Shown one piece after another: positions 1 to 33,830 of a stretch of 56,113 nt of DNA (positions are counted from its first letter, which is position 1; the number at the start of each line of letters is the position of its first letter). Location of the stretch: positions 62,001 through 118,113 of the forward strand of contig CAUYUJ010000111.1 of the NCBI GenBank assembly GCA_963575745.1, in the 5' to 3' direction. Source of the stretch: Prorocentrum cordatum (Eukaryota). A model generated the notes under the pieces. The model was given only the letters and a program-made list of their open reading frames with translations, ran no database searches and was not told the origin of the DNA. A program made the position numbers and the translations under genes.

Positions 1-10
1 TAATCAGTGC

Positions 11-2034: not shown

Positions 2035-5000
2035 GATGGTGGGGGCTCAGTTGCACTGCTCCGCCGATTCGGATTCGGATTCTAGTGGCGGACCGCAAAC
2101 CGCAAAAAAAACAAAGGTTGATGGTTTACCGCCGGGGCGCCCAGTGGACGCTACCAAGTACCTCGTAACTCGTAGAGCTTCGCGCAGTCGGTTTTATCAA
2201 GATAATTCGAGCTTCAGAACAGCTACAGAGCTGGTAAGCACAGCTAATCGATTCAGAATGATCAGGCGCGTTCGCCTGTTGAAACCAGAGGTCTGAACTC
2301 GGTCTGCTAGCCGAGCTAGGTCCGCAAACCTATTCGTATTATTCGAGTCATCTTGACAGACGCTTTCGGTTTTCAGTACTTAGCTCGAGCTACAGGACAG
2401 CTACAGAGCTGATACGTACAGAATCTGATTCAGAATCATCAGTGGCCGTTGTCTGTTGAATGCAAAGCACAGAACTCGGTCTCCTGCCCGATCTAGAATC
2501 GCGAAACTATTCGTATTGTTCGAGTCATCTTGAGACATGCTGTCGGTTCTCTGCACTTAACTCGGGCTGTAGGGCCATGGCTGGTAATCACTGGAATCGA
2601 TTCGAAGACATCAGACGTGTCCGCCTTTCGAACCCAGAGCTCCGAACTCTGTCTGCTGCCCAAACTAGGTCCGCGAAACTATTCGTATTGTTCGAGTCAT
2701 CCTGAGAGGTGCTCTCTGCACTTAACTCGGGCTGTAGGGGGGGCTGCAGGGCTGGTAATCACAGGAATCGATTCAGAGACATCAGACGCGTCCGCCTGTC
2801 GCATTCAGAGGCCTGAACTTGGTCTGATACTCGAGCTAGGTTTGTTAAACTAGTCGTATTGTTCGAGTTATCTTCAGGGTTGCTGTCGATTTACACAGAA
2901 CTCGGGCTGTAGGAGAGCTACAGCTCAAACAGAAGAATCCAGAAGCATCGGGGGCGTTCGGCTGTTGCATCGAGAGGTCTGAAATCGCTTGGGCTGAAAA
3001 ACTGCTTGTTCTGCATTTTTTTTCGACATTATATATTGTCAGGAAGCTCTACGAGTCCCCCGGCGGTAAGAAAGGTTGACGGTTTACCGCCGGCGCCCAG
3101 TGGACGCTACCAAGTGGACGCTACCAAGTACCTCGTAACTCGTAGAGCTTCCCTTAGCAAGTACCTCGTAGAGCTCTTCGAAGCTGAGCTAAGAGGAATT
3201 CGGGCGCAGGGTGGAGCTAGTTGGCCGACCGCGCATTAAGAGACAATATGTTAACTTTGGGTCGAGTTTCTAATGTTTGTGCAAAATTTGAAAATTCGTT
3301 TTGAGAGCGGGTATTTTTTTCACGTGTAGTAGGTTATGCCGCGACTGCCAGTTAAATTCTCAGGTCCGTAGCTGCAATATTACTATCAAAACACTTGCTG
3401 GAACCGACGGCCGTTTCGAGTCATCTTGACGCGCATTAACGGTTTCTGTACTTATCTCGGGATATAGGACAGCTGCAGAGCTGATGCTTACAGAAACGAA
3501 TTTGGAATCATGAGGCGCGTTCATCTGTTCGATCTACAGCTCTGAACTCGGTCTGCTGCTCGAGCTGGGTCTGCAAACTTATTTGTATTCTTCGAGTCAT
3601 TTTGACGAGTGTTGTCCGTTTTCTGTACTGAACTCGCGATATCTTGAAACAAAATCTCAATGTGTAGTGGGCAGCGCCGCGCAAGAAAGCTCTACGAGGC
3701 TCCCGGTGGTAACCTGGTCGACGGTTTACCGCCGGCTCCCAGTTATTGCTGGAAGCTAAGAGTAATTCCGGCGCGCTGGAGAGCTAGTTGGCTCGAAAAA
3801 TCTCGACGGAACTTTTGCTGACTTTTGGTCGGTTGAAAATTTTGTTCTCAAAATTTGAACATTCGTTAGAGCTCTAGTATGTTTTCCCGTGATATTCGAT
3901 CTTATTCCCGCTCGCCATCTTGATCTCAGAGCGATCGGGTGAATATTATTATCGAACAGCACTGTGGCGGGATCGGCCGTTTTGAGTCATCTTGATACGG
4001 GTTGACGGTTTTCTGAACATAACTCGAGCTTTAGGACAGATACAGAGCTGGTAAGCGCAGCTAATCGATGTAGAATGATTCGGCGCGTTCGGCTGTTGAA
4101 TCCATAGCTCTGAACTCGGTGTGTTCGCCGAGTTAGGTCCGCAAACCTATTTGTATTATTCGAGTCATCTTGACAGGAACTCTCGGTTTTCTGTACTTAA
4201 CTCGAGCTGTAGGACAGCTACAGAGCTCATATTCACAGAAACCGGTTTAAAATGAGCAGTTGCTTTTGTTTGTCGAATCGAGAGCTCTAAACTCGGTCTG
4301 CTGCCCGATCTAGAATCGCGAAACTATTCGTATTGTTTGGTCGAGTCATCTTGAGAAGTGCTCTTGGTTTTCTTCACTCAACTCGCGCTAAGGGGCGCTA
4401 CACTGCTGGTGGTCACATGACTCGATTTGAAGACATGAGGCGCGTCCGTCTGTCGAATGCAGAGCTCGGAACTCGGTCTGCTGCCCGAATTAGGTCTGCG
4501 AAACTACTGCATTGTTCGAGTCATCCTGAGAGGTGTTGTCGGTTTTTCTGCACTTAACTCGGGCTGTAGGGGGGCTGCATGGCTGGTAATGACAGGAGTC
4601 GATTCGCAGACAGACGCGTCCGCCTGTCGCATTCAGAGGTCAAAAAATATTCACTATAAGTCGGAATGTTGGTATTTGCTGTCGGTTTTCTCAACTTAAG
4701 TCGAGCTAGGAAGCTCTACGAGTCTCCCGGCGGTAACCAAGGTTGACGGTTTACCGCCGGCGCCCAGTAGAGCTTCTCGGCGTCGATGAGCTAGAGGAAT
4801 TCCGGCGCGGGGTGGAGTTAGTTGGTCGACCCGACCAGAAAAGAAGATGTGATAACTTTTGGTCGGTTTTGCAATTGTTTAAAAGATATTTGACAATTCA
4901 TTTTGAGAAAGCAGATTTCTACTCCGAGCATTGGTATCTTAACTTTGTTTTCTGAGCAGCTCAGCTCTCTAGGCGCACTTCTACTATCGAAACACTTGGA

Positions 5001-7755
5001 GGAACCATCATCATGTCGACACGAAAAAAAAACATTTTTCTCTTTTTTGAGAAATGTTTCGAGAAGCTCTCTCTTTCGGTTCTGAGCACTCTTACACGTG
5101 GAAGGAGCTCTACGAGGTTCCCGGCGGTGACGAGGTTGACGGTTCACCGCCGGCGCCAGTGCTAATATTTGAAAGATATTTGACAATTCATTTTAATAAA
5201 GCAGATTTTGCGCGTCACATTGGCATAAAAACTCTTCTCTGACAGCAGTTCAGCTCTGCCGATGCATTTTCGCATGAGATGACTTCCAGGAAATGAGTGA
5301 ATATAAATATCGAAAAAATCCCAAATTAAGTTTTCCGAAAAATCTCTATTTTTTCACTCTGTGTCGATTCTCTGCATTCTCACGAGTGAGGAGAGCTCTA
5401 CGAGGTTCCCGGCGGTGACCAGGTTGACGGTTCACCGCAGGCGCCAGTAATTCGGCGCGCTGGAGAGCTAGTTGGCAAGAAAAATCTCGACGGAAGTTTT
5501 GATGACTTTTGCTCAGTTGAAACTTATGTTCTCAAAATTTGACAATTCGTTAGAGCTCTAGTATTTTTTCCCGTGATATTCGATCTTATTCCCGCTCGCC
5601 ATCTTGATCTCAGCTCGATCGGGTGAATATTACAATCGAAAAGCACTGTGGCGGAATCGGCCGTTTCGAGTCATCTTGATACGCACTGACAGTTTTCTGA
5701 ACATAATTCGAGCTTTAGGACAGCTACAGAGCTGGGAAGCACAGCTAAACGATTTAGAATGATTAGGCGCGTTCCCCTGTTGAATCCAGAGGTCTCAACT
5801 CGGTCTGTTAGCCGAGCTAGGTCCGCGAACCTATTTGTATTATTCGAGTCATCTTGATAGGAACTCTCCGTTTTCTATACTTAACTCGAGCTGTAGGACA
5901 GCTACAGAGCTGCTATTTACAGAAACCGATTTAGAATCAGAGCTCTGAACTCGGTCTGTGCCCGATCTAGAATCGCAAAACTATTCGTATTGGTCGAATC
6001 ATCTTGAGAAGTGCTCTCGGTTTTCTTCACTCAACTCGCGCTGAGGGAGGATACAGTGCTGGTGGTCACAGGGATACAGTGCTGGTGGTGAGGGGGAATC
6101 GATTTGAAGACATCAGGCGCGTCCGCCTGTCGAATCCAGAGCTCGGAACTCGGTCTGCTGCCCGAATTAGGTCTGCGAAACTATTCGTACTGTTCGAGTC
6201 ATCCTGAGAGGTGCTATCGGTTTTCTGCACTTAACTCGGGCTGTAGGGGGGCTGCAGGGCTGGTAATGACAGGAGTCGATTCGCAGACATCAGACGCGTC
6301 CGCCTGTCTTCAGATGTCAAAAAATATTTACTCTGATTCGGAATGTTGGTAGATGCTGTCGGTTTTCTCAACTTAAGTCGAGCTAGGAAGCTCTACGAGT
6401 CTCCCGGCGGTAACCAAGGTTGACGGTTTACCGCCGGCGCCCAGTTCCGGGGCTCTGGAGATCACGTAACTCGTAGAGCTTTCCTTGGCAAGTTGTTGCT
6501 GGAAGCTTAAGAGTAATTGCGGGGCGCTGGAGAGCTAGTAACTCGTAGAGCTTCTCTCAAGTTTTTGCTGGAAGCTTAAGAGTAATTCCGGCGCGCTGGA
6601 GAGCTAGTTGGCAAGAAAAATGTCGACGGACCTTTTGGTGACTTTTGGTCGGTTGAAAATTTTGTTCTCGAAATTCAATCATTCGTTTGAGCTCTAGTAT
6701 TTTTCCCGTGATATTCGATCTTATTCCCGCTCGCCGTCTTGATCTCAGCTCGATTGGGTATCTTTTACTGCCAAAAAGCACTCCGGCGGGATCGGCCGTT
6801 TCGAGTCATCTTGATACGCGCTGTCGGTATATTGGACTCAACTCGAGATATAGGACAGCTACAGAGCTGGTAAGCACAGCTAATCGATTCAGAATGATCA
6901 GGCGCGTTCGCCTGTTAAACCCAGAGGTTTGAACTCAGTCTGCTAGCCGAGCTAGGTCCGCAAACCTATTCGTATTATTCGAGTCATCTTGTCAGGCGCT
7001 CTCGGTTTTCTGTACTCAACTCGAGCTACAGGACAGCTACAGAGCCGATACGTACAGAATCTGATTCAGAATCATCAGTGGCCGTTGTCTGTTGAATCGA
7101 GAGCTCTGAACTCGGTCTGCGACCCGATCTAGAATCGCGAAACTATTCGTAGTGTTCGAGTCATTTTGAGAGATGCTGTCGGTTCTCTGCACTTAACTCG
7201 GGCTGTAGGGGGGCTGCATGGCTGGTAATCGCTGAAATCGATTCGAGAACATCAGGCGCGTCTGCCTTTCGAATCCAGAGCTCCGAACTCTGTCTGCTGC
7301 CCGAACTAGGTGCGCGAACCTATTCGTATTGTTCGAGTCATCCTGAGAGGTGCTGTCGGTTTCCTGCACTTAACTCGGGCTTTAGGGGGGGCTGCAGGGC
7401 TGGTAATCACAGGAATCGATTCAGCGACATCAGACGCGTCTGCCAGTCGCATGCAGAGGTCTGAAAACGGTCTGATACTCGAGCTAGGTTTGCCAAATTA
7501 TTTGTATTCTCCGAGTCATCTTGAGAGGTGCTGTCGATTTACGCACGTAACTCGGGCTGTAGGAGAGCTACACAGCTCGTACAGAAGACAATCCAGAAGC
7601 ATCGGGGGCGTTCGGCTGTTGCATCCGAGGGGTCTGAAATTGCTTGGGCTGATTTTTTTTGTTATGTGTAGTTTTTTTCGACATTATATGTTGTCAGGAA
7701 GCTCTTCGAGTCCCCCGGCGGTAACAAAGGTTGACGGTTTACCGCCGGCGCCCAG

Positions 7756-10044
7756 TTGGCAAGAAAAATCTCGACGGAACTTTTGCTGACTTTTGGTCGG
7801 TTGAAAATTTTGTTCTCGAAATTCAACCATTCGTTAGAGCTCTAATATTTTTTCCCGTGATATTCGATCTTATTCCCGCTCGCCATCTTGATCTCAGCTC
7901 GATCGGGTACCTTTTACTGCCAAAAAGCACACGGGCGGGATCAGCCGTTTCGAGTCATCTTAATACGCGGTGACGGTTCTATCAAGATAACTCGAGCTTC
8001 AGGACAGCTACAGAGCTGGTAAGCACAGCTAATCGATTCAGAATGATCAGGCGCGTTCGCCTGTTGAACGCAGAGCTCTGAACTCGGTCTGCTAGCCGAG
8101 CTAGGTCCGCAAACCTATTCGTATTATTCGAGTCATCTTGACAGACACTCTCGGTTTTCTGTACTTAACTCCAGCTACAGGACAGCTACAGAGCTGATGC
8201 GTACAGAATCTGATTCAGGATCATCAGTCGCCATTGTCTGTTGAATCCAGAGCTCTGAACTCGGTCTGCTGCTCGATCTAGAATCGCGAAACGTATCGTT
8301 CGAGTCATTTTGAGAGATGCTGTCGGTTCTCTGCACTTAACTCGGGCTGTAGGGGGGCTGCATGGCTGGTAATCACTGGAAACGATTCGGAAACATCAGG
8401 CGCGTCCGCCTTTCGAATCCAGAGCTCCGAACTCTGTCTGCTGCCCGAACTAGGTCCGCGAAGCTATTCGTATTGTTCGAGTCAATCTGAGAGGCGCTGT
8501 CGGTTTCCTGCATTAACTCGGGCTGTAGGGGGGGCTGCAGGGCTGGTAATCACAGGAATCGATTCAGAGACATCAGACGCGTCCGACTGGTGCATGCAGA
8601 GGTCTGAACTCGGTCTGATACTCGAGCTAGGTTTGCCAAACTATTCGTATTGTTGGAGTCATCTTGAGAGGTGCGGTCGATTTACGCACGTAACTCGGAT
8701 TGTAGGAGAGCTACAGAGCTCGTGCAGAAGACAATCCAGAAGCATGGGGGGCGTTCGGCTGTTGCATCCGAGAGGTCTGAAACTGCTTGGGCTGAACAAC
8801 TATTTTCTCTGTGTAATTTTTTCGACATTATATGTTGTCAGGAAGCTCTACGACCCCTCCGGCGGTAACAAAGGTTGACGGTTTACCGCCGGCGCCCAGT
8901 TGGCAAGAAAAATATCGACGGAACTTTTGCTGACTTTTGGTCGGTTGAAAATTTTGTTCTCGAAATTCAACCATTCGTTAGAGCTCTAGTATTTTTTCCC
9001 GTGATATTCGATCTTATTCCCGCTCGCCATCTTGATCTCAGCTCGATCGGGTACCTTTTACTGCCAAAAAGCACACGGGCGGGATCAGCCGTTTCGAGTC
9101 ATCTTAATACGCGGTGACGGTTTTATCAAGATAACTCGAGCTTCAGGACAGCTACAGAGCTGGTAAGCACAGCTAATCGATTCAGAATGATCAGGCGCGT
9201 TCGCCTGTTGAACCCAGAGGTCTGAACTCGGTCTGCTAGCCGAGCTAGATCCGCAAACCTATTCGTATTATTCGAGTCATCTTGACAGACACTCTCGGTT
9301 TTCTGTACTCAACTCGAGCTACAGGACAGCTACAGAGCTGATACGTACAGAATCTGATTCAGGATCATCAGTCGCCATTGTCTGTTGAATCCAGAGCTCT
9401 GAACTCGGTCTGCTGCTCGATCTAGAATCGCGAAACGTATCGTTCGAGTCATTTTGAGAGATGCTGTCGGTTCTCTGCACTTAACTCGGGCTGTAGGGGG
9501 GCTGCATGGCTGGTAATCACTGGAATCGATTCGGAAACATCAGGCGCGTCCGCCTTTCGAATCCAGAGTTCCGAACTCTGTCTGCTGCCCGAACTAGGTC
9601 CGCGAAACTATTCGTATTGTTCGAGTCAATCTGAGAGGCGCTGTCGGTTTCCTGCATTAACTCGGGCTGTAGGGGGGGCTGCAGGGCTGGTAATCACAGG
9701 AATCGATTCAGAGACATCAGACGCGTCCGCCTGGTGCATGCAGAGGTCTGAACTCGGTCTGATACTCGAGCTAGGTTTGCCAAACTATTCGTATTGTTGG
9801 AGTCATCTTGAGAGGTGCGGTCGATTTACGCACGTAACTCGGGCTGTAGGAGAGCTACAGAGCTCGTACAGAAGACAATCCAGAAGCATGGGGGGCGTTC
9901 GGCTGTTGCATCCGAGAGGTCTGATATTGCTTAGGCTGAAAAATTATTTTTTCGGTGTATTTTTTTTCGACATTATATGTTGTCAGGAAGCTCTACGAGT
10001 CCCCCGGCGGTAACAAAGGTTGACGGTTTACCGCCGGCGCCCAG
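7756..10044 (+). repeat. Two near-identical tandem units (7756-8899, 8900-10044) with an internal ~177-bp monomer
   Basis: The GAGTCA landmark recurs at about 7951, 8129, 8301, 8478 and 8655 (spacing 172-178). Both units share the same short deletion (gcgaaacgtatcgttcg). Confidence 0.9.
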
Positions 10045-11399
10045 TTGGCTAGAAAAATCTCGACGGACATTTTGAGGAATTTTGGTCGGTTGAAAATTTT
10101 GTTCTCGGAATTCAACCATTCGTGAGAGCTCTAGTACTTTTTCCCGTGATATTCGATCTTATTCCCCCTCGCCATCTTGATCTCAGCTCGATCGGGTACC
10201 TTTTACTGCCAAAAAGCACTGCGGCGGGATCGGCCGTTTCGAGTCATCTTGATTCGCGCTGTCGCTATACTGAACTTAACTCGAGATATAGGACAGCTAC
10301 AAAGCTGGTAAGCACACCTTATCTATTCAGAATGATCAGGCGCGTTCGGCTGTTCCAACCAGAGGTCTGAACTCGGTCTGCTAGCCGAGCTAGGTCCGCA
10401 AACCTATTCGTATTATTCGAGTCATCTTGACAGGCGCTCTCGGTTTTCTGTACTTAACTCGAGCTATAGGACAGCTACAGGGATGATACTTACAGAAACC
10501 GCTTCAGAATCATCAGTCGCGTTTGTCTGTTGAATCCCGAGCTCTGAACTCGGTTAGCTGCCCGATCCAGAATCGCGAAACTGTTCGTATTGTTCGAGTC
10601 ATCTTGAGAGGTGCCGTCGGTTTCCTGCACTTAACTCGGGCTGTAGGGGGGCTACAGTGCTGGTGGTGACAGCAATCGGTTTGGAGACATCAGCCGCGTC
10701 CGCCTGTCGAATCCAGAGCTCGAAACTCGGTCTGCTGTCCGAACTGGGTCCGCGAAATTATTCGTATTGTTCCAGTCACCCTGAGAGGTGCTGTCGGTTT
10801 TCTGCACTGAACTCGAGCTGTAGGGGGGCTGCAGGGCGGGTAATCACAGGAATCGATTGGGAGACATCAGACGTCCGCCTGTCGCATTCAGAGGTCTGAA
10901 CTCGGTCTGATACTCGAGCTGGGTTCGCCAAACTATTCGTTTTGTTCGAGTCATCTTGAGAGGTGCTGTCGATTGACGCACGTAACTCGGGTTCTAGGAG
11001 AGCTACAGAGCTCGTACAGAAGACAATCCAGAAGCATCGGGGGGCGTTCGGCTGTTGCATCGAGAGGTCTGAAATGGCTTGGGCTGAAAAACTATTCGTT
11101 CTCTGCATTTTTTCGACATTATATATTGTCAGGAAGCTCTACGAGTCCCCCGGCGGTAACAAAGGTTGACGGTTTACCGCCGGCGCCCAGTTGGTCGACC
11201 CGGCCAGAAAGGACAAAGTGGTAACTTTCGGGTGGTTTTGCAATTTTTTGAAAGATATTTGGCAATTCATTTTGAGAAAGCAGATTTTTCGCACCTGTAA
11301 ACGACTATGAGGGCCTCTCTGTCTTAATATGAGCTCTGTAGCCGCACTTTTACTATCAAAACACTTGGCGGAACCATCTTCATGTCGACACGAAAAAAT

Positions 11400-11401
<2 letters not shown>

Positions 11402-11477
<76 letters not shown>
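11402..11477 (+). repeat. Poly(T) tract of 76 nt inside a short type-B array unit
   Basis: The homologous position in the next unit (~11890) reads catgttttctatttt. Confidence 0.9.
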
Positions 11478-11479
<2 letters not shown>

Positions 11480-13184: not shown

Positions 13185-13656
13185 GCTGATGAACTTACCC
13201 ATCTAGCACGGGAAGGCCAGATATTCAGAGAGCTGTTCCACCACCATATCTTTCGCCCTGATGTTCAAGACAACTTTCGAGTTATTGGCCTCCGCGGATC
13301 CTTCGACGGCGGAGTGTGTGCCCAAGGTGTGGGCGTCGGCTGGTTTCTGCAGATTGGATATATCCCTCGCTTCCATGATCCGTACCCTGACCCTGAACAT
13401 AGAGATAAGAGAGCTCGGGTAGTCTCCCTCTTCCCCCAAGCCTCCTCTCCTTGTCCAATCATATGGGAAGTAGTAGGGCGTTGTGCACAGGCACTCCCCT
13501 CCCATAGCAGTATCACTGACGCTGAGCTTTCGGGTCTCGAGGGCCTCTTGCGGGCCGCAGCCCAGGTGGCCCAAGACCTCCAGCTGCAGAGAGACTAGGT
13601 AGGCACTTAACGGGCGCTGGGGCGCTCGGTGCCTGGTCAGCCTCCCCCAAAAAAAA
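13185..13656 (+). mobile_element. 5'-truncated LINE, copy 2 (RNase H part, 3' UTR and A8)
   Basis: ADELTHLAREG..GSFDGG..GVGWFLQIG..SITDAEL is homologous to copies 1 and 3, with stop at 13598. Flanks are cccggcggta and caaaggttgacgg, so it splits one hairpin. Confidence 0.9.
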
Positions 13657-17642: not shown

Positions 17643-17676
17643 CGTTTGCGGCGCCTCGTCCGAGGCATACGCTTAG

Positions 17677-20600
17677 GCGAGCTGGAACCTGAACAAAGCA
17701 GGGGAGGCTCATTTCAAATGTGCTGAGATTCTCCATCATATGAGGGCATGTGGTGGGCTCTTTGCATGTCAGGAAACTCAATACCTAGTGCACGGGGAAT
17801 TTGAACGCTTGGGGTGGCGCATCAAAACTAGTTCGTGTAGTAAGGCAGCTCTCATCTTCGACAGATCTTGGGCGGCTGCCGTCCGTATGTTTTTCACTTG
17901 TTTCACGAGGTTCGTTATCGGTGTCTTTGGGTCAGAGAAGTCACCACTCATTATTGTGTCAGCGTATTTGCCAGACCCTCATGTGGAGGATTGTGTAGAG
18001 ATTGCTGCGGAGGTATATGAGCAGATCGGTCGTGCTCGCAATGTTCTCCGCACTAAGTTTCCTCAGGCCAGCTTTTGTGTTCTGCTAGATGCAAACGTGG
18101 AGATTCCGCCTGGATGCAGATTTACGTATAATGGGGAGGAGTATGAGGCTACTGGAAAGGAAGGTACTCGTACGGACAGAAGGTGGGAGAGAGGAGGAGA
18201 CGGTACACAGCAGATTGAAAGGAGGAGTCGGAGGAGGAGGCTGAAGGAGCTGCTGTTAGAGTTCATGGAATCGCATGGACTGAAGGCCGCCAACACTTTC
18301 TGTACTAGGAGGCATACCTGGGAGTCGTGGGGGGAGAACAAGTTTCTGACTTCGAAGAGGGTCCTGGATTACCTAATGGTCCCTCACCGTTGGGAGTTCT
18401 CGGATCTGGAGGTGAAGTGGTGTTTCAAGAGGGGTGGGAAGAAGCAGTTCAGTAGATTATCCGATCACGCAATCATCACGGCGAGTTTCACTGACCCTGG
18501 GAACGTGATTGTTCGTCGCCCTGACCCCCAGCCTGGTCAGAAGTCTAGGCCGTCTCTGGTCGGATACAAGTGTTCGACTTGGGCTGATGAGCATCAGGCT
18601 CGACAGCATGTGGATTCGTATCTAGGCGGTGCTGCCTTTTCAAGGTGTCCGTCTGTGACCTGTCCACAGGGTCTGGAGAGTACTATGCTGGAGGCGTACT
18701 TGTCACCGACGGTGGACTACTCCACCACGGGTGCGAGAAGACCGAGAGAGCCGTCCAGGCCGGTGCAGCTCACAAGAGCGGAGGAGGAGGTTAAGATGTG
18801 TCCGAAGGAGGAAGTGGAGAGGTTGAGGAGGTTAAAGAATGAGGCTAATCGTCTACGCAGAGGTTATCGACGTGATATGATTATGTGCAGATGTCCCCCA
18901 ACAAAACGAAAGGTCAGATATACTATCAAACATTTAGTGGTGGATGGGAGGGAGACGGAGGACCGTGAGGAGTGGAAGGAGGAGCTCGACAAGTTCGTTC
19001 GTTGCAAGGTGTCGTCCGAAGAGATACGCAATTCCACCAACAGTGTGATGGAGGAGATCAGGATGAGGGCTGTACATGAGATACGTTCCACATCAGTTGT
19101 GGGAATTAGTATGGCGCTGCTTCTCAGAGCACGAGCTCGGCTGAAGACCCAGAGGGCTACTGGGCCAGACGGGATACCGTGCGAGATTCTAAGGAGCTTG
19201 CCGTGGTGTGCTCTCAGAGCGATCCAGAAGCTGTTCGATAAAATCATCAAGCTCACGATTCCGTATCCTCAGTCGTGGCGTGAGATTCTCGTCTCTTTTA
19301 TGCCAAAAACTCCAGGGATCACTAAGCTAAAAGACGGACGCTTGCTGTGTATGCAGAATGCTGTTTCGAGATGGTTCAGTTCCTGTGTTGTTCTCTTGGT
19401 TGAGGGTCATATTGAAAGAAAAGGAGTGTTTTGTCATATTGGGTTGTATGGTTTCCAGGAACACCGTCGTACACACGAAATCACGGCTAGCATCAAACAC
19501 ATAGGTCAACATGCTGCACAATGGGGAAAAGGGGAAACGGCACACTTGGCGAACGCTGATGTCCTTCAGGCGTTCGATCACTGCACGGTGGCCAATGTCA
19601 GGCGCGGGTTGGATCATGCGGATGTACCCCTTTACCTACAGTATGCTCTACTTGACCCCTTGTGCGAATGTGTAGGCACTGTCTATTATGATGGGATTGA
19701 GGTGGTGGAGGTTAGGTGGGACAAATGTATTCGGACGGGAGGGCCCGAGGGACCGTTGGCCTTCAATCTCATCGTTGCTGCTATGTGGGGCTCCACGATT
19801 CGAGAATGGGACGTACTAGGACTAGGTTATCGTATTGAGTATGTGACTGGCTCGACTAGCTGTGTTTCGATTATTAATCATTTCCTTTGGGCTGACAACT
19901 GTTATGTATTGGCTCGGAGTCGAGAGGAACTCACACGCATGTTACACGGTCTAACTACACAGTTACATGATTATGGAATGAGATGGAAGGAATCCAGCCT
20001 ATTGTATATGGTGTTCGGGGTCGAGCCGCCGCGAGATGTGGAAGGGGAAATACTTCACACTGCTGATCTTGCTCTCTCGGTGGGGTCGGAGGCGTCTGGA
20101 GTGTATCGATTTAGAAGGACGACGGAGATGGAGGTGCTGGGGGCTTATATTTGTTCTGAACTACATGTGAATGAACATCATGATTTGGACGCTCGTATTG
20201 ACTGTGCTCGCAGGGCCTTCTGGGGGCAGGCGACCTTCTTCCGCTCCACGGCCATCCCGTTGAAAGATAAATATGAGAGGTATGCTCAGAGAGTTCAGAG
20301 TATTGTGCTCTACGCGGCGGAAGGATGCACGGTCGATTCAAGTTCATTGAGCGCCCTTCATATCTTTGAGGGCAAGTGCCTGTCTGTAATGTCTCGCTGT
20401 ATACGGAGGGAGGGGGAAAGTTACCAGGAATGGAATACGAGGAGGTATGAACGTGTGAGACAAAAATTTCATGGTGCTCACTTTGTGGGCATTGTACAGA
20501 AGTTTCTCAGAGTGCATTGGATGTGGGCAATTGACGTCCAGGACTTTGCACACAGGCTGATCACAGATCGGGGGGAGTTGGAGGCGAACTCGATGAGAGC

Positions 20601-21597
20601 TTGGAGAGATTCTCGTTTCTCATGTCTGGCGTTTGGCCGACTGTGGGATAGAATGAGGACGGATTCAAGTGAGGCTCTCAGATGTTGGGGAAACTGGAAG
20701 GAGGCCAGCTCTATGAAAAGGCATCGGGGGGGACAGGAGAGCGTCGGACTCCGTCCGTGGTATTATTCATTGGAATCGTTTTACGGTTTATCCTGGTGGG
20801 AGTTCTTTGCTGGAAGTTTTGAGCATTTCATGGATTTCGCTACTAATGTTTGTTCTAGTACTATGTTGAAGTACTTCCAAAAGAAGTGTAAAGGGTTGGC
20901 GTCCTCAGGGGTGCCTGTATTCTTGAACTTGGATGAGGATGGAGGGGTTCATATCGGTCAGGATCGGGAGGATACACCAGCATATAGGGATCGCCTCAGC
21001 AAACGTATTGCGTTGCATAATATGCGTTGTACACAGTGGGACCTCGATACAGATGGGATACCACTGGACATCCAAGGGGACTCACTGCTTGTTATTAACT
21101 GGCTCTGCGGGAAATGGAAAGTATTAGCTCAGGTATATCAGAAAAGGGTGGATACTCTGATTAATAAGTTGGACGAAATGCAGGAAACTTACTTGGTGAG
21201 GCCTCCAGAGGCCGGCCGTGACTTCTTCTCTCATTCGTTTCGGGAATGGAACCAGAAAGCTGACTTACTGACCCATCAGGCCCGTCAGGGCCATGTGTAC
21301 GCCGATTTCGTTTACCTCAACGACTTTGAATCTCAGTGTTATATTCCTTGCCTTATCAAAGCCGGCTTTGATGGGGGAGTTTGTAGCCGCGGAAGTGCCT
21401 GTGGTGCATGGATACAGATTGGTCTGCGAAACAAGTATATCTTCTCGCGGACCGACATCATTTTCAAGGATGTGTATCTTGCGGCTTGGTGTCTACCACC
21501 GAGCGCCACTGTTACAGATACGGAACTATCGGCGGCGGAGCGCATATGCGAGGTGCTCCCACAGGTTGTGCAGACCTTCTTTGATCATTCGCAGTGA
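17677..21597 (+). CDS. LINE ORF2 polyprotein: APE endonuclease, reverse transcriptase and RNase H-like domain
   Basis: APE motifs ASWN (in frame, upstream of the ATG at 17740), CQET, SAYLP, LDAN, NTF, LDYL and SDH. RT motifs GPDGIP, YGF, ADVLQAFD, IRTGGPEGP and WADN. C-terminal GDS, REWNQKAD, FDGG and DTEL. About 1300 uninterrupted codons. Confidence 0.93.
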   Translation, partial: ASWNLNKAGEAHFKCAEILHHMRACGGLFACQETQYLVHGEFERLGWRIKTSSCSKAALIFDRSWAAAVRMFFTCFTRFVIGVFGSEKSPLIIVSAYLPDPHVEDCVEIAAEVYEQIGRARNVLRTKFPQASFCVLLDANVEIPPGCRFTYNGEEYEATGKEGTRTDRRWERGGDGTQQIERRSRRRRLKELLLEFMESHGLKAANTFCTRRHTWESWGENKFLTSKRVLDYLMVPHRWEFSDLEVKWCFKRGGKKQFSRLSDHAIITASFTDPGNVIVRRPDPQPGQKSRPSLVGYKCSTWADEHQARQHVDSYLGGAAFSRCPSVTCPQGLESTMLEAYLSPTVDYSTTGARRPREPSRPVQLTRAEEEVKMCPKEEVERLRRLKNEANRLRRGYRRDMIMCRCPPTKRKVRYTIKHLVVDGRETEDREEWKEELDKFVRCKVSSEEIRNSTNSVMEEIRMRAVHEIRSTSVVGISMALLLRARARLKTQRATGPDGIPCEILRSLPWCALRAIQKLFDKIIKLTIPYPQSWREILVSFMPKTPGITKLKDGRLLCMQNAVSRWFSSCVVLLVEGHIERKGVFCHIGLYGFQEHRRTHEITASIKHIGQHAAQWGKGETAHLANADVLQAFDHCTVANVRRGLDHADVPLYLQYALLDPLCECVGTVYYDGIEVVEVRWDKCIRTGGPEGPLAFNLIVAAMWGSTIREWDVLGLGYRIEYVTGSTSCVSIINHFLWADNCYVLARSREELTRMLHGLTTQLHDYGMRWKESSLLYMVFGVEPPRDVEGEILHTADLALSVGSEASGVYRFRRTTEMEVLGAYICSELHVNEHHDLDARIDCARRAFWGQATFFRSTAIPLKDKYERYAQRVQSIVLYAAEGCTVDSSSLSALHIFEGKCLSVMSRCIRREGESYQEWNTRRYERVRQKFHGAHFVGIVQKFLRVHWMWAIDVQDFAHRLITDRGELEANSMRAWRDSRFSCLAFGRLWDRMRTDSSEALRCWGNWKEASSMKRHRGGQESVGLRPWYYSLESFYGLSWWEFFAGSFEHFMDFATNVCSSTMLKYFQKKCKGLASSGVPVFLNLDEDGGVHIGQDREDTPAYRDRLSKRIALHNMRCTQWDLDTDGIPLDIQGDSLLVINWLCGKWKVLAQVYQKRVDTLINKLDEMQETYLVRPPEAGRDFFSHSFREWNQKADLLTHQARQGHVYADFVYLNDFESQCYIPCLIKAGFDGGVCSRGSACGAWIQIGLRNKYIFSRTDIIFKDVYLAAWCLPPSATVTDTELSAAERICEVLPQVVQTFFDHSQ

Positions 21598-24500
21598 TTT
21601 GACACACATTGTTTCTTCTTTTCCGTGTCTTGTATATTCCTGCAGCTTCGCTGCTCACTGACTTCCTCGATTAGCTGTGTGTACTTTGCGTTTGATTGTG
21701 TCATTGCGGCATGTGATTCTCTTTATTCCTTCAGCTTCGCTGTGTGGTATAAGAGCTGACTGCTTGCGTGATGAATAAGAGGCTCTGTTTTGCCTGAGAC
21801 TTTGTTGGACCTGGCCTCAGTGGCCAAGACGGTCCCAGCAAAGACGCAAAAAAAACAAAGGTTGACGGTTTACCGCCGGCGCCCAGTTGTTGCTGGAAGC
21901 TTAAGAGTAATTCCGGGGCGCTGGAGAGCTAGTTGGCAAGAAAAATCTCGACGGACCTTTTGCTGACTTTGGGTCGGCGCCAGTTGGCAAGAAACATCTC
22001 GACGGACCTTTTGCTGACTTTGGGTCGGTTGAAAATTTTGTTCTCGAAATTCAACCATTCTTTAGAGCTCTAGTATTTTTTCTGACCATATTCGATCTTA
22101 TTCCCGCTCGCCATCTTAATCTGAGCTTGATCGGGTAAATATTTCTGCAAAAAATCATCGCGGCGGTATCGGCTGTTTCGAGTCATCTTGATACGCGTTG
22201 TCGGTATTTTGTACTTAACACGAGCTGTAGGGCAGCTACAGAGCTCATTCTCACAGAAATCGATTGCGAATCATCAGGCGCGTTCGTCTGTTCCATCTAG
22301 AGGGCTGAACGCGGTCTGCTGCCCGAGCTAGGTCCGCGAAACTATTCGTGTTGTTGGAGTCATGTTGAGAGGTGCTGACAGTTTTCTGCACTTAACTCGG
22401 GCTGTAGAGGGGCTACAGGGCTCGTGCTCACAGGAATCGATTCGGAGACATCATGCGCGTCCGCCTGCCGAATCCAGAGCTCGGGACTCGGTGTGCTGCC
22501 CGAGCTAGGTTCGCAAAACTATTCGTATTCGTCGAGTCATCTTGAGAGGTGCTGTCCGTTTTCTGCACTTAACTCGAGCTGTAAGGGGGCTGCAGGGTTG
22601 GTAATCACTGGAATCGATTCGGAGACATCAATCGCGTCCACCTGTCGCATTCAGAGCCCTCAACTCGGCCTGCTGCCCGAGCTAGGTCCACGAAGCTATT
22701 CGTGTTGTTCGAGTCATCTTCAGAGGTGCTGTCGATTTCTGCACTTAACTCGGGCTGTAAGGGTGCTGCGGACTGGTAATCACAGGAATCGATTCGGAGA
22801 CATCAGGCGCGTCTGCCTGTTGCATTCAGATGTCTGAACTCGGTCTGATACTCGAGCTAGATTCGCGAAACTATTTGTATTGTTCGAGTGATCTCGAGAG
22901 GTGCTGTCGATTTTCGCACGTAACTCGGGCTGTAGGAGACCTACGGAGCTCGTGCGCACAGAAAACGATCCAGAAGCATGAGGGGCGTTTGGCTGTTGCA
23001 TCGAGAGGTCTGAAATCGTTTAGGATGAAAAGCTATTCGTTCTCTGCAATTTTTTTCGACATTATATATGCTCAGAAAGCTCTACGAGTCCCCCGGCGGT
23101 AAGGAAGGTTGACTGCTTACCGCCGGCGCCCAGTGGACGCTACCAAGTGCAATCTTTGTGCAATTTTAAAGTTCGTTTTGGGAACCGGTATTTTTCTCAC
23201 CTGTAGTGGGTTGTGCCGCGTCTGCGAGTGAAATTCACAGGTCCGTAGCTGCAGTATTACTATCGAAAGACTTGAGGGAACCGTCAGCCGTTTCGAGCAC
23301 CTCCACACGCGTTGACAGTTTTCTGTATCTCAAGATTTAGGAGAGGTACAGAGCTGCTACTTACAGAAATCGATTCAGAATCATCAGGCGCGTTTGTCTG
23401 TTCCATCGAGAGGTCTGAACTCGGACTGCTACTCGAGCTAGATCCGCGAAACTATCCGCATTACACGAGTGCTCTGAGAGGAACACGTAATTTTTAAAGC
23501 TTTTCAGCTCACGCGTAAGAAAGGTCCCCCCTTGTGTTCCAAGCAGCGTCGTGCAGAGAAGAGCTCTACGAGGCTCCCGGCGGTAACCTGGTTAACGGTT
23601 TACCGCCGGCTCCCAGTTCCGGGGCGCTGGAGAGCTAGTTGGCAAGAAACACCTCGACGGACGTTTTGACGACTTTTGCTCGGTTGAAAATTTCGTTCTC
23701 GAAATTGAACCATTCGTTGGAGCTCTTGTATTTTTTTCTCGTGATATTCGATCTTATTCCCGCTCGCCATCTCGATCCCAGCTTGCTCGCGTACCTTTTA
23801 CTGCCAAAAAGCGTCTAGGCGGGATCGGCCGTTTCGGGTCATCTTGTCACGCGCTGCCGGTTTTCTGAAGATAACTCGAGCTTTAGGACAGCTACAGAGC
23901 TGGTAAACACAGCTAATCGATTCAGAATGATCAGCCGCGTTCGCCTGTTGAACCCAGAGGTCTGAACTTGGTCTGCTAGCCGAGCTAGGTCCGCAAACCT
24001 ATTCGTATTATTCAGGGGCTCTCGGTTTTCTGTACTCAACTCGAGCTACAGGACAGCTTCAGAGCTGATACGTACAGAATCTGATTCAGAATAATCAGTG
24101 GCCGTTGTCTGTTGAATCCAGAGCTCTGAACTCGGTCTGCTGCCCGATCTAGAATCGCGAAACTATTCGTATTGTTCGAGTCATCTTGAGAGATGCTGTC
24201 GGTTCTCTGCACTCAACTCGGGCTGTGGGGGGGCTGCATGGCTGGTAATCACTGGAATCGATTCGGAGACATCAGGTGCGTCCGTCTTTCGAATCCAGAG
24301 CTCCGAAGTCTGTCTGCTGTCGAATTAGGTCCGCGAAACTATTCGTATTGTTCGAGTCACCCTGAGAGGTGCTGTCGGTTTCCTGCACTTAACTCGGGCT
24401 GTAGGGGGGCTGCAGGGCTGGTAATCACAGGAATCGATTCAGAGACATCAGACGCGTCTGCCTGTCGCATGCAGAGGTCTGAACTCGGTCTGATACTCGA

Positions 24501-25796
24501 GCTAGGTTTGGGAAACTATTTGTTTTTTGTTCGACTCATCTTGAGAGGTACTGTCGATTTACGCATGTAACTCGGGCTGTAGAAGAGCTACAGAGCTCGT
24601 ACAGAAGACAATCCAGAAGCATCGGGGGCGTTCGGCTGTTACGTCGGAGAGGTCTGAAATTGCTTGGGCTGAAAAACTTTTTTTTCAGTGTAATGTTTTT
24701 CGACATTATATGTTGTCAGGAAGCTCGACGAGTCCCCGGCGGTAACGAAGGTTGACGGTTTACCGCCGGCGCCCAGTTGGTCGACCCGACCAGAAAGGAA
24801 AAGTGGTGACTTTGGGTCGGTTTTGCGCAGATTTGAAAGATAGAAAGCAGATTTTTACGCCGAGCATTGGCATATGAACTCCTCTCTGACAGCAGCTCAG
24901 CTCTGCCGATGCATCTTCTTGAGAGTTGACTTCCCGGGACTGAGCGAATATGAACATCGAAAAAATCGAAAATGAAGATTTCCGAAAAATCTTTAGTTTT
25001 TGACTCTACTTCGATTCTCAGCACTCTTACCAGTGTAAGGAGCTCTACGAGGTTCCCGGCGGTGACTAGGTTTAAGAAAGTACGAGCGTGGACAGCGAGG
25101 GATGTTGGAGTTGAATATTCCGAGCTGAAAAGTTATCGAAAACAGCTCGCGCAGATGTTGCCCCATATATGGCAAAAGTGCTCGTTTCGATGTCGTCGTT
25201 TTTCAAAAAGATGTCGCTGCTTGTGAAAAAGATGTTGTTTTCAATGTGTTGTTGTTTCCAGAAATATTTCCCTGTGCAAACGCAAGTTTGCGACTCGAGT
25301 TGACGTTTTGATTGGGAGCGCGGGCAGCCGCTTGGCATCTTCCAGGTGGCATGGGTTGTGACAGCAGTGTCATTAGCTATACGTCGTTATCGATGTACGT
25401 ACGATAAGATTGCACGCGCAGAAGCCGTAGGCGTGATGATAGTAGGTTAAAGGGTACGTGCGGAGAGTACGTGTAGAGAGTGTCCGCGAAGAGACTGCGT
25501 ATACGAATCATGTCCACGTTCGTGTACAGGTGTCGTCGCTTGTGATGTCTACGCGTATGTGCATTGCAAACGAGGGCAACATTATCACAGCCCTGTTTAT
25601 CCTTTGAACTGCCACGAGCGGCTGCATTGCGATTGCGTTGCGTTTGGTCACATGTACCAGCGCTGCCCACAAGCCACGTGACTTGTCCATCAATGGTCGT
25701 TGCGATCGCGTTGCAGTTGCATTGCGATTGAATTGCGATTGCATGGCGGTTGCGTTGTGTTTGGTGGTCAATGGTGGCTTTTCTGGGTTTGTCAAA

Positions 25797-27691: not shown

Positions 27692-27864
27692 GCGTGCTCT
27701 GTATCGCCTGCCCACCCTCCTTCCCCCCCCCCCACCCATCGCGCCATCGCCCCGACCCCTCGATCGCCGCGCCCGCCCACCTACCCCCCAGTTTCCGGCG
27801 TGGCAGTCGGGGGGGTGGGGCGTTGGCGCAGAGGGGGGCGCAACTTCTTCGCCCCTGCGCAAAG
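27692..27864 (+). other. Putative GC-AG intron, phase 0
   Basis: tca|gcgtgc ... caaag|gtt joins NYS to VALSS in frame. The interior is poly-C/G low complexity. Confidence 0.55.
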
Positions 27865-33685: not shown

Positions 33686-33830
33686 GCGCGCACACGCGCG
33701 CACACGCACACGAACACGCACGCACATACACACACGCACACACACACACACGCACGCACACGCACACGCACACGCACACGCAAACACACACACACACGCA
33801 AACACACACACACACACACACACCACCATC
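33686..33830. repeat. (CA/CG)n microsatellite
   Basis: Read directly from the sequence. Confidence 0.9.

What the first reader, a model, noticed from the sequence alone, without database searches (positions are those of the whole stretch)
2145..25072. Polar array with invariant CAG|T ends and variably truncated starts joined at G|T
Seen: after each CAG the next unit starts at one of a few T residues in a shared leader (tggacgctaccaag / tacctcg / taactcg / tagagcttcc..caag / ttgttgctgg..gag / taattccgg..ctag / ttggcaag), mostly with (A)GT microhomology. Leader pieces are sometimes stacked (3101-3180, 6445-6610). A subterminal IR (CTCGTAGAGCTT / AAGCTCTACGAG), a 3' hairpin and internal tandem repeats match the described layout of non-autonomous Helentron/DINE-1-like elements. 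Inference: the array grows by HUH-type self-targeted insertion or rolling-circle concatemerisation rather than by unequal crossover. No Rep/helicase gene is visible in the window.
Basis: partly seen in the sequence, partly recalled or inferred. Interest (0 to 1): 0.75.

Follow-up and report, generated by a model that had tools for sequence, protein, structure and literature searches.

The report
Nested Helitron2-like transposon array
A 23-kb one-way repeat block in a dinoflagellate-type genome is a pile of small, protein-less, rolling-circle-type (Helitron2/HINE-like) transposons that landed in each other's front ends, a known kind of element and process seen here in extreme form.

Summary
Window 2145-25072 carries 19 hairpin-bearing 3' ends, all on the + strand, each ending CGCC(C)AG or CTCCCAG and followed by T. 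The next unit starts at a few recurrent T positions of a shared ~80-nt leader.

The "truncated starts" are mostly not truncated elements. At least 6 of 15 are back parts (tails) of host copies split by a later insertion. Their short front parts lie upstream in exact last-in-first-out order (shuffle P about 2e-4). Rejoining front and back restores the intact leader with no duplication and no loss. Nine tails have no front part in the window.

The units have 11-nt subterminal inverted repeats, a 5' hairpin, a 10-bp 3' hairpin with one compensatory change, 177-bp internal satellites and no TSD. This is the Helitron2/HINE (DINE-1-like) layout. Three subfamilies share only their ends.

Copies are 77-93% alike and only one pair reaches 97.6%, so neither concatemers nor unequal crossover built the array. 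Three LINEs, 26-31% identical in protein, sit in hairpin loops as guests, not partners. No Rep/helicase lies in the window, so the enzyme is inferred. This scan already noted the same family, its nesting and the hairpin-targeting LINEs on other DNA of this genome.

The parts
1..2111 (+). LINE copy 1 (3' part, runs off the window's left end), ending in A8 at 2104-2111. It sits in the hairpin loop of a unit whose front lies left of the window.
   Evidence: 26-31% aa identity to the ORF2 of LINE 3; A8+CAAAGG junction
2112..2144 (+). 3' half of the hairpin plus the CGCCCAG terminus of the unit interrupted by LINE 1
2145..3100 (+). Composite element: front pieces a+b, then a long-type (A) element with its 5' terminus at 2166 and an internal deletion. 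Its 37-nt a-b-c-d leader is identical to 3115-3151.
3101..3161 (+). Stack of front pieces (heads): a,a (14-nt doublet), b (3129-3135), c-d (3136-3161)
   Evidence: (period 14, 2.2 copies, 100%)
3162..3742 (+). Complete subfamily C element (5' TACCTCGTAGAGCT, 3' CTCCCAG) inserted at the d|e site of a long-type host
3743..4767 (+). Tail (from e) of the long-type host whose head is 3136-3161
   Evidence: Rejoined head+tail equals the intact leader
4768..5159 (+). Tail (from d) of a subfamily B host whose head is b at 3129-3135
   Evidence: 80% identity over 392 nt to the complete B element from its position 8
5160..5447 (+). Tail of a short-type host starting inside the body (TGCTAAT). Tentatively closes head a (3115-3128).
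   Evidence: (compare a+TGCAAT contiguous at 23134)
5448..6444 (+). Long-type tail starting at f; no head in the window
6445..6538 (+). Tail piece f+3..f (6445-6466), itself cut at f|g, then head c-d-e-f (6467-6538)
6539..7755 (+). Complete long-type element inserted at the f|g site
7756..11190 (+). Three long-type tails starting at g (7756, 8900, 10045). The first two close heads 6467-6538 and 6445-6466 and are 97.6% alike. The third has no head in the window.
11191..11593 (+). Subfamily B tail starting at g, with a T76 run at 11402-11477
11594..11619 (+). Head c-d of a long-type element inserted directly behind the preceding CGCCAG end
11620..12018 (+). Complete subfamily B element inserted at d|e
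12019..13686 (+). Tail (from e) of the host with head 11594-11619. Its 3' hairpin is interrupted by LINE copy 2 (about 13184-13656, deeply 5'-truncated, A8 at 13649-13656). The end lacks the final G.
13687..14873 (+). Complete long-type element joined head-to-tail to the previous 3' end
14874..21886 (+). Long-type tail starting at f+3. Its hairpin is interrupted by full-length LINE copy 3 (about 15990-21855: ORF1 15796-17595, ORF2 17677-21597, A8 at 21848-21855).
21887..21983 (+). Mini-unit: leader e-f-g plus 45 nt joined to CGCCAG. It is part of a 51-bp duplication (21931-22028).
21984..23133 (+). Long-type tail starting at g, the most diverged copy (77-83% to the others)
   Evidence: there taken from 21976
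23134..23616 (+). Piece a joined directly to a subfamily C body that lacks its first ~110 nt
23617..24776 (+). Long-type tail starting at f+3
24777..25072 (+). Subfamily B tail starting at g, cut inside its hairpin loop (..GGTGACTAGGTT|). This is the right end of the array.
   Evidence: no further hairpin arm downstream

Best explanation
The interval is a one-way, self-nested pile of non-autonomous transposons with Helitron2/HINE (DINE-1-like) architecture.

Each element has:
- a fixed 5' terminus, TA(A/C)CTCG;
- an 11-nt 5' subterminal repeat that can pair with a nearby leader repeat (forming a 5' hairpin) or with the 3' subterminal repeat;
- a body, which in the long type is a 177-bp satellite;
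- a 10-bp 3' hairpin;
- a 6-7-nt tail ending in CAG.

New copies integrate in one orientation, without target duplication or loss, next to a T that usually follows AG or G. Written AG|T, or equivalently AGT|T, this looks like the element's own 3' junction CAG|T. Such sites lie in the small loops and at the foot of the family's own 5' hairpin, and directly behind its own 3' end. Resident copies are therefore the preferred targets.

Each hit in a leader splits the host into a short head (100 nt or less) and a long tail (0.3-1.2 kb). Repeated hits give stacked heads on the left and a polar row of tails on the right, each following a CAG.

Heads or tails without a partner can arise in several ways. 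A nest can be mobilised from an outer 5' end to the first 3' end, which gives composite leaders such as a-b-c-d. A 3' end can be bypassed. Or the partner may simply lie left of the window.

Shown here: the anatomy, the nesting, the site preference, the interleaving of diverged subfamilies, and LINEs as later guests.

Inferred: that a RepHel (HUH/Y2) transposase acting on single-stranded DNA does the cutting and joining.
For: 1. Ends. 8 of 8 full 5' termini start at the same nucleotide, preceded by G in 7 and A in 1. The 19 hairpin 3' ends are all on the + strand.

2. Nesting. Of 9 head pieces, 6 are closed by the tail that continues them exactly, in last-in-first-out order. Shuffling the 15 tail labels reaches 6 matches in 25 of 100,000 trials. 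Leaving out the tentative pair, 5 matches give P=8.6e-4. If the a-a doublet is one head and 2145-3100 is a transposed composite, 6 of 6 heads close, none mismatch and 9 tails are left over.

3. Paralogous empty sites. Head plus tail reconstitutes the uninterrupted leader base for base, with no TSD and no deletion, in 5 clear cases and 1 tentative case.

4. Subfamilies. A, B and C share only about 33-70 nt of leader and about 40-50 nt of 3' end and are interleaved.

5. Divergence. The 12 long units are 77-93% alike, with 1 pair of 66 at 97.6%.

6. 3' hairpin. 129 of 130 cells pair, and an A:T to G:C double change marks subfamily B.

7. 5' hairpin. DNA folding gives it in types A and B (z -1.96 and -2.37). 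The d|e and f|g sites fall in 4-nt loops.

8. Independent DNA. Metagenome contigs L003 and L004 show the same ends, a CAG|f+3 junction, a c-d-e head followed by a full element, and a 5' terminus behind ..TTAAG.

9. Reads of coded runs. Word depths reach 1e4-1e5. Listed joints include head f (B)|5' terminus (9 and 6 contigs), head f+3 (B)|5' terminus (1 and 1) and CAG|TAACTCG (21, 12 and 2 contigs).

10. Literature. The layout equals the one described for DINE-1/HINE and Helitron2: subTIRs, a 5' IR nested in the subTIR, a 3' stem-loop, central repeats, no TSD, T's at the boundaries (passages of PMC4067079 and PMC5148889). Self-insertion and composite 5' ends are described for Helitron2-type elements (PMC5148889 passages). 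A Helitron2-like RepHel is reported from a dinoflagellate (PMC8788227 passage).
Against: - No Rep/helicase ORF lies in the window (0 of 88 frames tested). No genome is held. No autonomous copy with these ends was seen by me, so the enzyme class is not shown.
- 9 of 15 tails have no head in the window. Heads (8 5' repeats) are far fewer than tails (18-19 3' repeats). Nesting alone explains this only if a stack of heads lies left of the window, or if heads were lost or bypassed.
- Under the strict parse, 3 heads (a at 2145, b at 2159, a at 3101) are closed by the wrong tails.
- The 14-nt piece a is not explained.
- The target is T|T in only 12 of 20 junctions when the T is counted with the element (corrected for 21983). 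This is less strict than the TT described for Helentrons.
- The subfamily C 5' hairpin is weak (z -0.88).
- The read joints come from short contigs of a very abundant family, and only 15 of 489 joints were listed.
Confidence: 0.68

Rival explanations
1. The units really are 5'-truncated. The transposase starts at alternative G|T sites inside the leader (one-ended or alternative-origin rolling-circle copying), or rolls round a circle, and puts the shortened copies behind a resident CAG|T end.
For: 9 of 15 tails lack a head in the window and there are 8 heads against 18-19 tails. The same start (f+3) follows three different kinds of upstream unit in the window and one in L003. The break sites resemble the element's own 3' cleavage junction.
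Against: Every start class except the two body-internal ones is also seen as an insertion site with the head present: d|e, f|g and b|d in the window, e|f in L003, and f+3 in read joints. Neighbouring units are diverged or of different subfamilies, so they are not products of one rolling event. From knowledge of Helraiser (recalled, not read here), the 5' end is needed for transposition.
Confidence: 0.12
2. The same nesting and anatomy, but a different enzyme: a tyrosine recombinase, an IS200/IS605-like single-domain HUH nuclease or another site-specific integrase, not a Helitron-type RepHel.
For: No RepHel is linked to these ends by any search of mine. Insertion without TSD next to a short motif that repeats the element's own end junction is also typical of IS200/IS605-type and recombinase-driven elements (established knowledge, recalled).
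Against: The combination of asymmetric subterminal repeats, a 5' IR nested in the subTIR, a 3' hairpin a few bases from the end, central satellites and T-flanked, TSD-free insertion is the described HINE/Helitron2 layout (PMC4067079 and PMC5148889 passages). RepHel genes exist in dinoflagellates (PMC8788227 passage). Unchecked scan notes report RepHel remnants in this genome.
Confidence: 0.1
3. The units are retroposons (SINE-like) copied by the LINEs of the array through target-primed reverse transcription. The variable starts would be ordinary 5' truncation, as in R1-type head-to-tail arrays.
For: Invariant 3' ends with variable 5' starts are the classic retroposon pattern. Three LINEs in the array carry the same last 33 nt as the units, each after exactly 8 A's. 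One scan note on other DNA of this genome read a similar array this way.
Against: - The LINEs' shared tail is the host hairpin's 3' half. 2 of 2 visible LINE 5' junctions lie in the 5' arm or loop of a unit that continues upstream.
- No unit sits in a hairpin loop, which is where the LINEs land.
- Units have no A-tail and no TSD. 8 of 8 have precise 5' termini. Their starts are confined to the first 81 of about 1186 nt (P about 7e-16 if uniform).
- The LINEs in the same array show what TPRT gives: a deep arbitrary truncation (copy 2) and 0-7 nt lost at the 5' junction.
- Rejoined hosts are exact.
Confidence: 0.04
4. An ordinary satellite whose higher-order units were multiplied by unequal crossover, the junction variety being later decay.
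For: Units 7756 and 8900 are 97.6% alike over 1145 nt. A 51-bp duplication stands at 21931-22028 and a 14-nt doublet at 3099-3129.
Against: 65 of 66 unit pairs are 77-93% alike, with no general neighbour effect. Three subfamilies with unrelated bodies are interleaved. Head/tail pieces fit in nested order. The same family occurs in other contigs with other neighbours.
Confidence: 0.05

Closest known systems
DINE-1 / HINEs (Helentron-associated interspersed elements; Thomas et al. 2014, PMC4067079, passages read)
   Same: Non-coding. Subterminal inverted repeats of 11-13 bp. A short IR whose 5' side lies inside the 5' subTIR. A stem-loop near the 3' end. Central tandem repeats that can fill half of the element. 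No TSD. T's at the boundaries.
   Different: The host is a dinoflagellate-type genome. The target context is (A)G T|T or A or G rather than plain TT. The strong preference for its own leader loops and own 3' end gives 20-kb polar nests. No Helentron (Rep/Hel/endonuclease) partner was seen.
Helitron2 group, incl. FoHeli of Fusarium and relatives (Chellapan et al. 2016, PMC5148889, passages read)
   Same: Asymmetric terminal inverted repeats with the 3' repeat 20-40 bp from the end (here 45 nt). Hairpins at both ends. Self-insertion giving nested and composite elements with several 5' ends. [quoted passage not shown]
   Different: There the cases are few and the 5' duplications are short. Here dozens of events at five or six defined sites build the whole locus. 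Stated targets differ (TNAT|T; TTTT|T or C).
Tandem arrays of truncated centromeric Helitrons in plants (Xiong, Dooner and Du 2016; seen only as described in the review PMC12628747)
   Same: Head-to-tail arrays of Helitron-derived units that look like satellites.
   Different: Those arrays have many 5' ends and a single 3' end and are explained by rolling-circle amplification of a template that lost its terminator. Here it is the reverse (8 5' ends, 19 3' ends) and the units are diverged.
Helitron2-like RepHel element of Symbiodinium microadriaticum (Heringer and Kuhn 2021, PMC8788227, passage read)
   Same: Shows that Helitron2-type transposases exist in dinoflagellates. A plausible kind of autonomous partner.
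   Different: No sequence link to the ends studied here was tested.
R1-type head-to-tail retrotransposon arrays (named in a scan note; recalled)
   Same: Polar arrays with fixed 3' ends and variable 5' starts.
   Different: The units here lack A-tails and TSDs, have precise 5' ends, and are nested with exact host continuity.

Membership tests
Helitron2 / HINE (DINE-1-like) non-autonomous rolling-circle elements | Asymmetric (subterminal) inverted repeats: one at the 5' end, the partner upstream of the 3' hairpin | tested here: met
   CTCGTAGAGCT at nt 4-14 of 8 of 8 full 5' ends. AGCTCTACGAG 45 nt before the 3' end in 18 copies, plus 1 degenerate.
Helitron2 / HINE (DINE-1-like) non-autonomous rolling-circle elements | Stem-loop close to the 3' terminus | tested here: met
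   10-bp stem, 99.2% of 130 cells paired, one compensatory pair change, 6-7 nt from the end
Helitron2 / HINE (DINE-1-like) non-autonomous rolling-circle elements | 5' inverted repeat or hairpin overlapping the 5' subTIR | tested here: met
   DNA folds of leaders: type A -15.7 kcal/mol (z -1.96), type B -17.4 (z -2.37), type C weak (z -0.88)
Helitron2 / HINE (DINE-1-like) non-autonomous rolling-circle elements | Central tandem repeats or satellite | tested here: met
   177-bp repeats, 1.9-4.8 copies, in the long-type units
Helitron2 / HINE (DINE-1-like) non-autonomous rolling-circle elements | Insertion without target-site duplication | tested here: met
   5 clear paralogous empty-site reconstructions, no base gained or lost
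Helitron2 / HINE (DINE-1-like) non-autonomous rolling-circle elements | Insertion in a TT dinucleotide (Helentron), or after T-runs before T or C (Helitron2) | tested here: inconclusive
   A T always abuts the element. If it is counted with the element's 3' end, the site is T|T in 12, T|A in 4 and T|G in 4 of 20 junctions. Read the other way, it is G|T in most.
Helitron2 / HINE (DINE-1-like) non-autonomous rolling-circle elements | Autonomous partner with the same ends encoding Rep (HUH, two tyrosines) fused to a Pif1-like helicase | not testable with these tools
   No genome held. 0 of 88 frames of 150 aa or more in the window hit Rep or helicase families. Scan notes of RepHel genes elsewhere in this genome are unchecked.
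Helitron2 / HINE (DINE-1-like) non-autonomous rolling-circle elements | Circular or joined-end intermediate | tested here: inconclusive
   CAG|TAACTCG junctions are common in contigs (21, 12 and 2 contigs) and occur twice in the window. Chromosomal tandem copies give the same junction.
Canonical Helitron (Helitron1) | 5' TC, 3' CTRR, insertion between A and T | tested here: not met
   Ends are TA(A/C)C...CCAG. The upstream flank is G in 7 of 8.
SINE-like retroposon mobilised by the resident LINEs | 3' tail shared with the LINE or an A-tail, target duplications, 5' truncation at arbitrary depth, same target as the LINE | tested here: not met
   No A-tail and no TSD. Starts are confined to the leader. 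LINEs land in hairpin loops and units never do.
Satellite DNA expanded by unequal crossover | Neighbouring units more alike than distant ones; one unit type | tested here: not met
   1 of 66 pairs above 95%. Three subfamilies sharing only their ends.

The most novel reading that the evidence does not exclude
The family is self-homing. Its integration motif, AG|T(T), mimics its own 3' cleavage junction and is displayed in the loops of its own 5' hairpin and at its own 3' end. Every copy is therefore a landing pad, and the family builds directional, satellite-like islands by itself.

In addition, the head-less tails (9 of 15 here) are true products of initiation at these internal pseudo-origins. 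This would be a rolling-circle transposon whose 5' boundary is chosen among several nick sites.

These islands then serve as the niche of at least three very different LINE lineages that aim at the hairpin loop.
Probability: 0.2. Interest if true: 0.6.

Novelty: new member of a known kind. Interest (0 to 1): 0.4.

Why it matters
It shows, junction by junction, how a rolling-circle-type transposon family can make a directional 20-kb "satellite" without unequal crossover. It does so by repeatedly landing in a handful of sites of its own leader.

For annotation of dinoflagellate genomes, such blocks should be parsed as nests of heads and tails, not as arrays of truncated copies.

The family is very abundant in the source organism, with word depths of 1e4-1e5 in two coded runs. 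It is also the substrate for hairpin-targeting LINEs, so it is a major architectural component of that genome.

If an autonomous RepHel with these ends is found, the defined AG|T sites in hairpin loops give a direct test of target choice by a Helitron2-type enzyme.

Tried and rejected
- Own-genome search: no genome is held.
- Rfam at E up to 1 over 1-26000, to look for ribozymes or known RNAs at the unit ends: 0 matches.
- My first reading was LINE/SINE target-primed retrotransposition into the unit's own 3' end. I dropped it after the LINE 5' junctions were placed in host hairpins and the nest parse worked.
- Spliced-leader reading of the leader pieces. The pieces end in ..CAAG, but they are homologous leader segments shared by subfamilies A, B and C, not stacked relics. 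Only LINE 3 starts with two GGCTCAAG-bearing 16-nt repeats.
- Introner reading. G|TAAC...CAG looks like GT...AG, but splicing at those sites would remove the host G as well. The message would be one base short, so I did not pursue it.
- Metagenome scan with the 3' end pattern: 5 loci. 2 of them (L001, L002) are chance matches without the family's other features. L003 and L005 share the same flank and are probably one locus.
- Sequencing runs: no RNA holder listed.
- The run guessed to be RNA (X19) gave 57 laid contigs. I draw nothing about expression from it.
- Read joints: only 15 of 489 were listed, so no genome-wide head/tail tally could be made.
- The unique flank 25073-25790 has no copy elsewhere in the window, and the frames of 150 aa or more that cross it have no Pfam match. 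Why the last unit is cut in its loop stays open.
- Piece a (TGGACGCTACCAAG) occurs 4 times, always behind CAG or behind another a. An a-like stretch in L003 is embedded in other DNA before a 5' terminus. Its origin is unresolved.


Full report
**What is there**

The window is eukaryotic repeat DNA. No whole genome is held for it. Notes of this scan call the source a Prorocentrum-like dinoflagellate, which I did not check.

Between 2145 and 25072 a two-strand scan finds 19 copies of a conserved 3' hairpin arm, all on the + strand. Each is followed by CGCCCAG, CGCCAG or CTCCCAG and then T. One end (13686) lacks the final G, and one hairpin-less CGCCAG|T stands at 21983. With 27.5% T in the interval, twenty T's in a row have a chance of about 6e-12.

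I label them a, b, c, d, e, f and g, with one more start three bases into f (f+3), and two starts deeper in the short subfamilies.

The array continues to the left of the window, because position 1-2111 is a LINE sitting in the hairpin of a unit that begins further left. It ends at 25072 inside the hairpin loop of the last unit.

**Anatomy of one element**

Eight copies have a complete front end. All eight start TA(A/C)CTCGTAGAGCT, preceded by G in seven cases and A in one. The 11-nt CTCGTAGAGCT is the reverse complement of AGCTCTACGAG. That partner stands 45 nt before the 3' end in 18 copies, plus one degenerate copy.

Between that 3' repeat and the end lies a 10-bp hairpin. In an alignment of 16 window copies and 2 metagenome copies, 99.2% of 130 cells pair. 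Subfamily B carries an A:T to G:C double change at one pair.

The leader itself folds as DNA into a hairpin in which the 5' repeat pairs with a nearby partner: type A -15.7 kcal/mol (z -1.96), type B -17.4 (z -2.37), type C weak (z -0.88).

The long type carries 1.9-4.8 copies of a 177-bp internal repeat.

There are three subfamilies: A, about 1.15 kb; B, about 0.4 kb; C, about 0.58 kb. They share only about 33-70 nt of leader and about 40-50 nt of the 3' end, and their bodies differ.

This is the layout described for DINE-1/HINE elements and the Helitron2 group:
- subterminal inverted repeats;
- an IR whose 5' side lies within the 5' repeat;
- a 3' stem-loop;
- central repeats;
- no target duplication;
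- T's at the boundaries.

I read this in passages of PMC4067079 and PMC5148889. It is not the canonical Helitron layout (5' TC, 3' CTRR, A|T target).

**The "truncated starts" are largely tails of split hosts**

Wherever a full 5' terminus stands inside the array, the text just before it is a leader piece. The text just behind the guest's CAG continues that leader at the next base.

- c-d (3136-3161) + [C element 3162-3742] + e-f-g... (3743-)
- b (3129-3135) + [3136-4767] + d... of subfamily B (4768-)
- c-d-e-f (6467-6538) + [6539-7755] + g... (7756-)
- f+3..f (6445-6466) + [6467-8899] + g... (8900-)
- c-d (11594-11619) + [B element 11620-12018] + e... (12019-)
- tentatively, a (3115-3128) + [3129-5159] + TGCTAAT... 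(5160-); compare a+TGCAAT contiguous at 23134

In each case the rejoined host equals an uninterrupted leader elsewhere in the window, with no base duplicated or lost.

I then treated the array as brackets. Six of nine heads are closed by the right tail in last-in-first-out order, three are not, and six tails meet an empty stack. Shuffling the 15 tail labels gives six or more matches in 25 of 100,000 trials. Without the tentative pair, five matches have P=8.6e-4.

Two assumptions change the count. The first is that the a-a doublet is a 14-nt slippage copy (period 14, 2.2 copies, 100%). The second is that 2145-3100, whose 37-nt a-b-c-d leader is identical to 3115-3151, is a transposed composite. 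Then six of six heads close, none mismatches, and nine tails remain without a head in the window.

Nested self-insertion is therefore shown for part of the array. For the rest it is the economical reading, but it is not shown.

**Where the insertions go**

In an intact 81-nt type A leader, five T sites are used. Four of them are G|T, though only 5 of 21 T's follow a G (P=0.004). Three of those four read AG|T.

Two full elements sit directly behind another element's CAG (11593/4 and 13686/7).

Because the element begins with T and is followed by T, the cut can be written either as (A)G|T or as (A)GT|N. In the second form the next base is T in 12, A in 4 and G in 4 of 20 junctions. This is with the place 21983 corrected.

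The two busiest sites, d|e and f|g, lie in 4-nt loops of small leader hairpins. The sites e|f and f+3 lie at the foot of the 5' hairpin. The motif repeats the element's own 3' junction, CAG|T.

All 13 long-type tails start within the first 81 of about 1186 nt. Uniform truncation would give this with P about 7e-16.

**Independent DNA**

A scan of metagenome contigs with the 3' end pattern gave five loci. Three are relatives (L003, L004, L005). L003 and L005 share a flank and are probably one locus. L001 and L002 are chance hits.

- L003 shows CAG|f+3, an a-like stretch before a 5' terminus, and a c-d-e head followed by a full element, that is, insertion at e|f.
- L004 shows a 3' end, 19 nt of inverted unit body, then a 5' terminus behind ..TTAAG.

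Laying the contigs of four coded runs on 2100-16100 gave word depths of 1e4-1e5 in two of them, so the family is very abundant there. Among the 15 of 489 joints listed were:
- head f (B)|5' terminus (9 and 6 contigs);
- head f+3 (B)|5' terminus (1 and 1 contig);
- CAG|f+3;
- CAG|TAACTCG (a G put in behind 13686 in 21, 12 and 2 contigs).

The f+3 site has tails but no head in the window. It does therefore occur elsewhere as an insertion site with its head.

**What did not build the array**

The 12 long units are 77-93% identical. Only 7756 and 8900 are 97.6% alike. That pair, together with the 51-bp duplication at 21931-22028 and the 14-nt doublet, shows that local duplication occurs but is minor.

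Concatemers from one rolling event would be near-identical neighbours of one subfamily, and that is not seen.

The retroposon reading was my first guess, and one scan note reads a similar array that way. It fails on several counts. The units have no A-tail and no TSD. They have precise 5' ends and exact host continuity, and they never sit in a hairpin loop.

The three LINEs of the same array show what target-primed reverse transcription looks like. One copy is cut down to about 470 nt (about 13184-13656). The 5' junctions lose 0-7 nt of the host hairpin. The 3' junction is fixed at A8|CAAAGG.

Those LINEs are only 26-31% identical in protein. ORF2 of the full copy matches RVT_1 at E 4e-6, 27.1 bits, under Pfam's 29.6 cut-off. 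They are guests in the hairpin loop, not partners of the units.

**The enzyme**

None of 88 tested frames (of 89 with 150 aa or more) matches a Rep or helicase family. Rfam gives nothing over the array.

That a RepHel transposase moves these units is inferred from three things:
- the layout;
- the published presence of a Helitron2-like RepHel in a dinoflagellate (PMC8788227, passage);
- unchecked scan notes of RepHel genes and helicase remnants elsewhere in this genome.

[quoted passage not shown] Plant centromeric arrays, described in the review PMC12628747 (passages; the original paper was not seen), have the opposite polarity, with many 5' ends and one 3' end.

**Verdict**

This is a real, well-defined structure. 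It is a new family of a known kind of element, showing unusually strong and site-specific self-targeting.

"Truncated units" and "concatemerisation" do not.

Three points stay open:
- the nine tails without heads;
- the 14-nt piece a;
- the cut hairpin at the right end.

The same family, its nesting and the hairpin-targeting LINEs were already noted by this scan on other DNA of this genome.

Noticed in passing
window 1-2111; about 13184-13656; about 15990-21855: Three LINE copies only 26-31% identical in protein. Each ends with exactly eight A's joined to CAAAGG in the loop of a unit's 3' hairpin. Two of two visible 5' junctions lie in the same hairpin's 5' arm or loop. This is site-specific targeting of the hairpin, already noted by this scan on other DNA. 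The identical A8 in such different LINEs suggests a templated tail rather than a free poly(A).
   Followed up: partly
window 15987-16019: The full-length LINE starts with a 16-nt unit repeated 2.1 times. Each copy contains GGCTCAAG, which I recall as the last bases of the dinoflagellate spliced leader. It may be relic leaders of a trans-spliced LINE RNA.
   Followed up: partly
window 24777-25072: The array ends with a subfamily B unit cut inside its hairpin loop, 7 nt beyond the place where the LINEs insert. The next ~700 nt are unique in the window.
   Followed up: partly
window 2145-2158, 3101-3128, 23134-23147; L003 about 873-890: A 14-nt piece (TGGACGCTACCAAG) always stands behind a CAG end or behind itself. 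Once it is fused to a subfamily C body that lacks its leader. An a-like stretch in L003 lies in unrelated DNA just before a 5' terminus. Its origin is unknown.
   Followed up: partly
window 21887-22028: A mini-unit, leader plus 45 nt joined to the last six bases CGCCAG. It is followed by a near-identical restart of the body (51-bp period, 97% matches). This is an internal deletion or slippage product.
   Followed up: no
window 11402-11477: A run of 76 T inside a subfamily B unit. Reads seem to be cut there.
   Followed up: no
every full element, e.g. window 6538-7756: With the host G in front, the elements read G|TAAC...CCCAG, like a GT...AG intron. Splicing there would remove the host G too and leave the message one base short, so this is only a resemblance.
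   Followed up: no
window 35200-40130: A 4.9-kb array of the heptamer AGTGAGT (about 709 copies) with GC skew about 0.7
   Followed up: no
window 25800-34500 and 48000-55000: GC-rich (58-65%) region with several copies, in both orientations, of a ~0.9-kb unit carrying 11-bp CTCTTGGGGGC-type repeats and purine-rich triplet runs. No Pfam match in its long frames except weak low-complexity hits.
   Followed up: no
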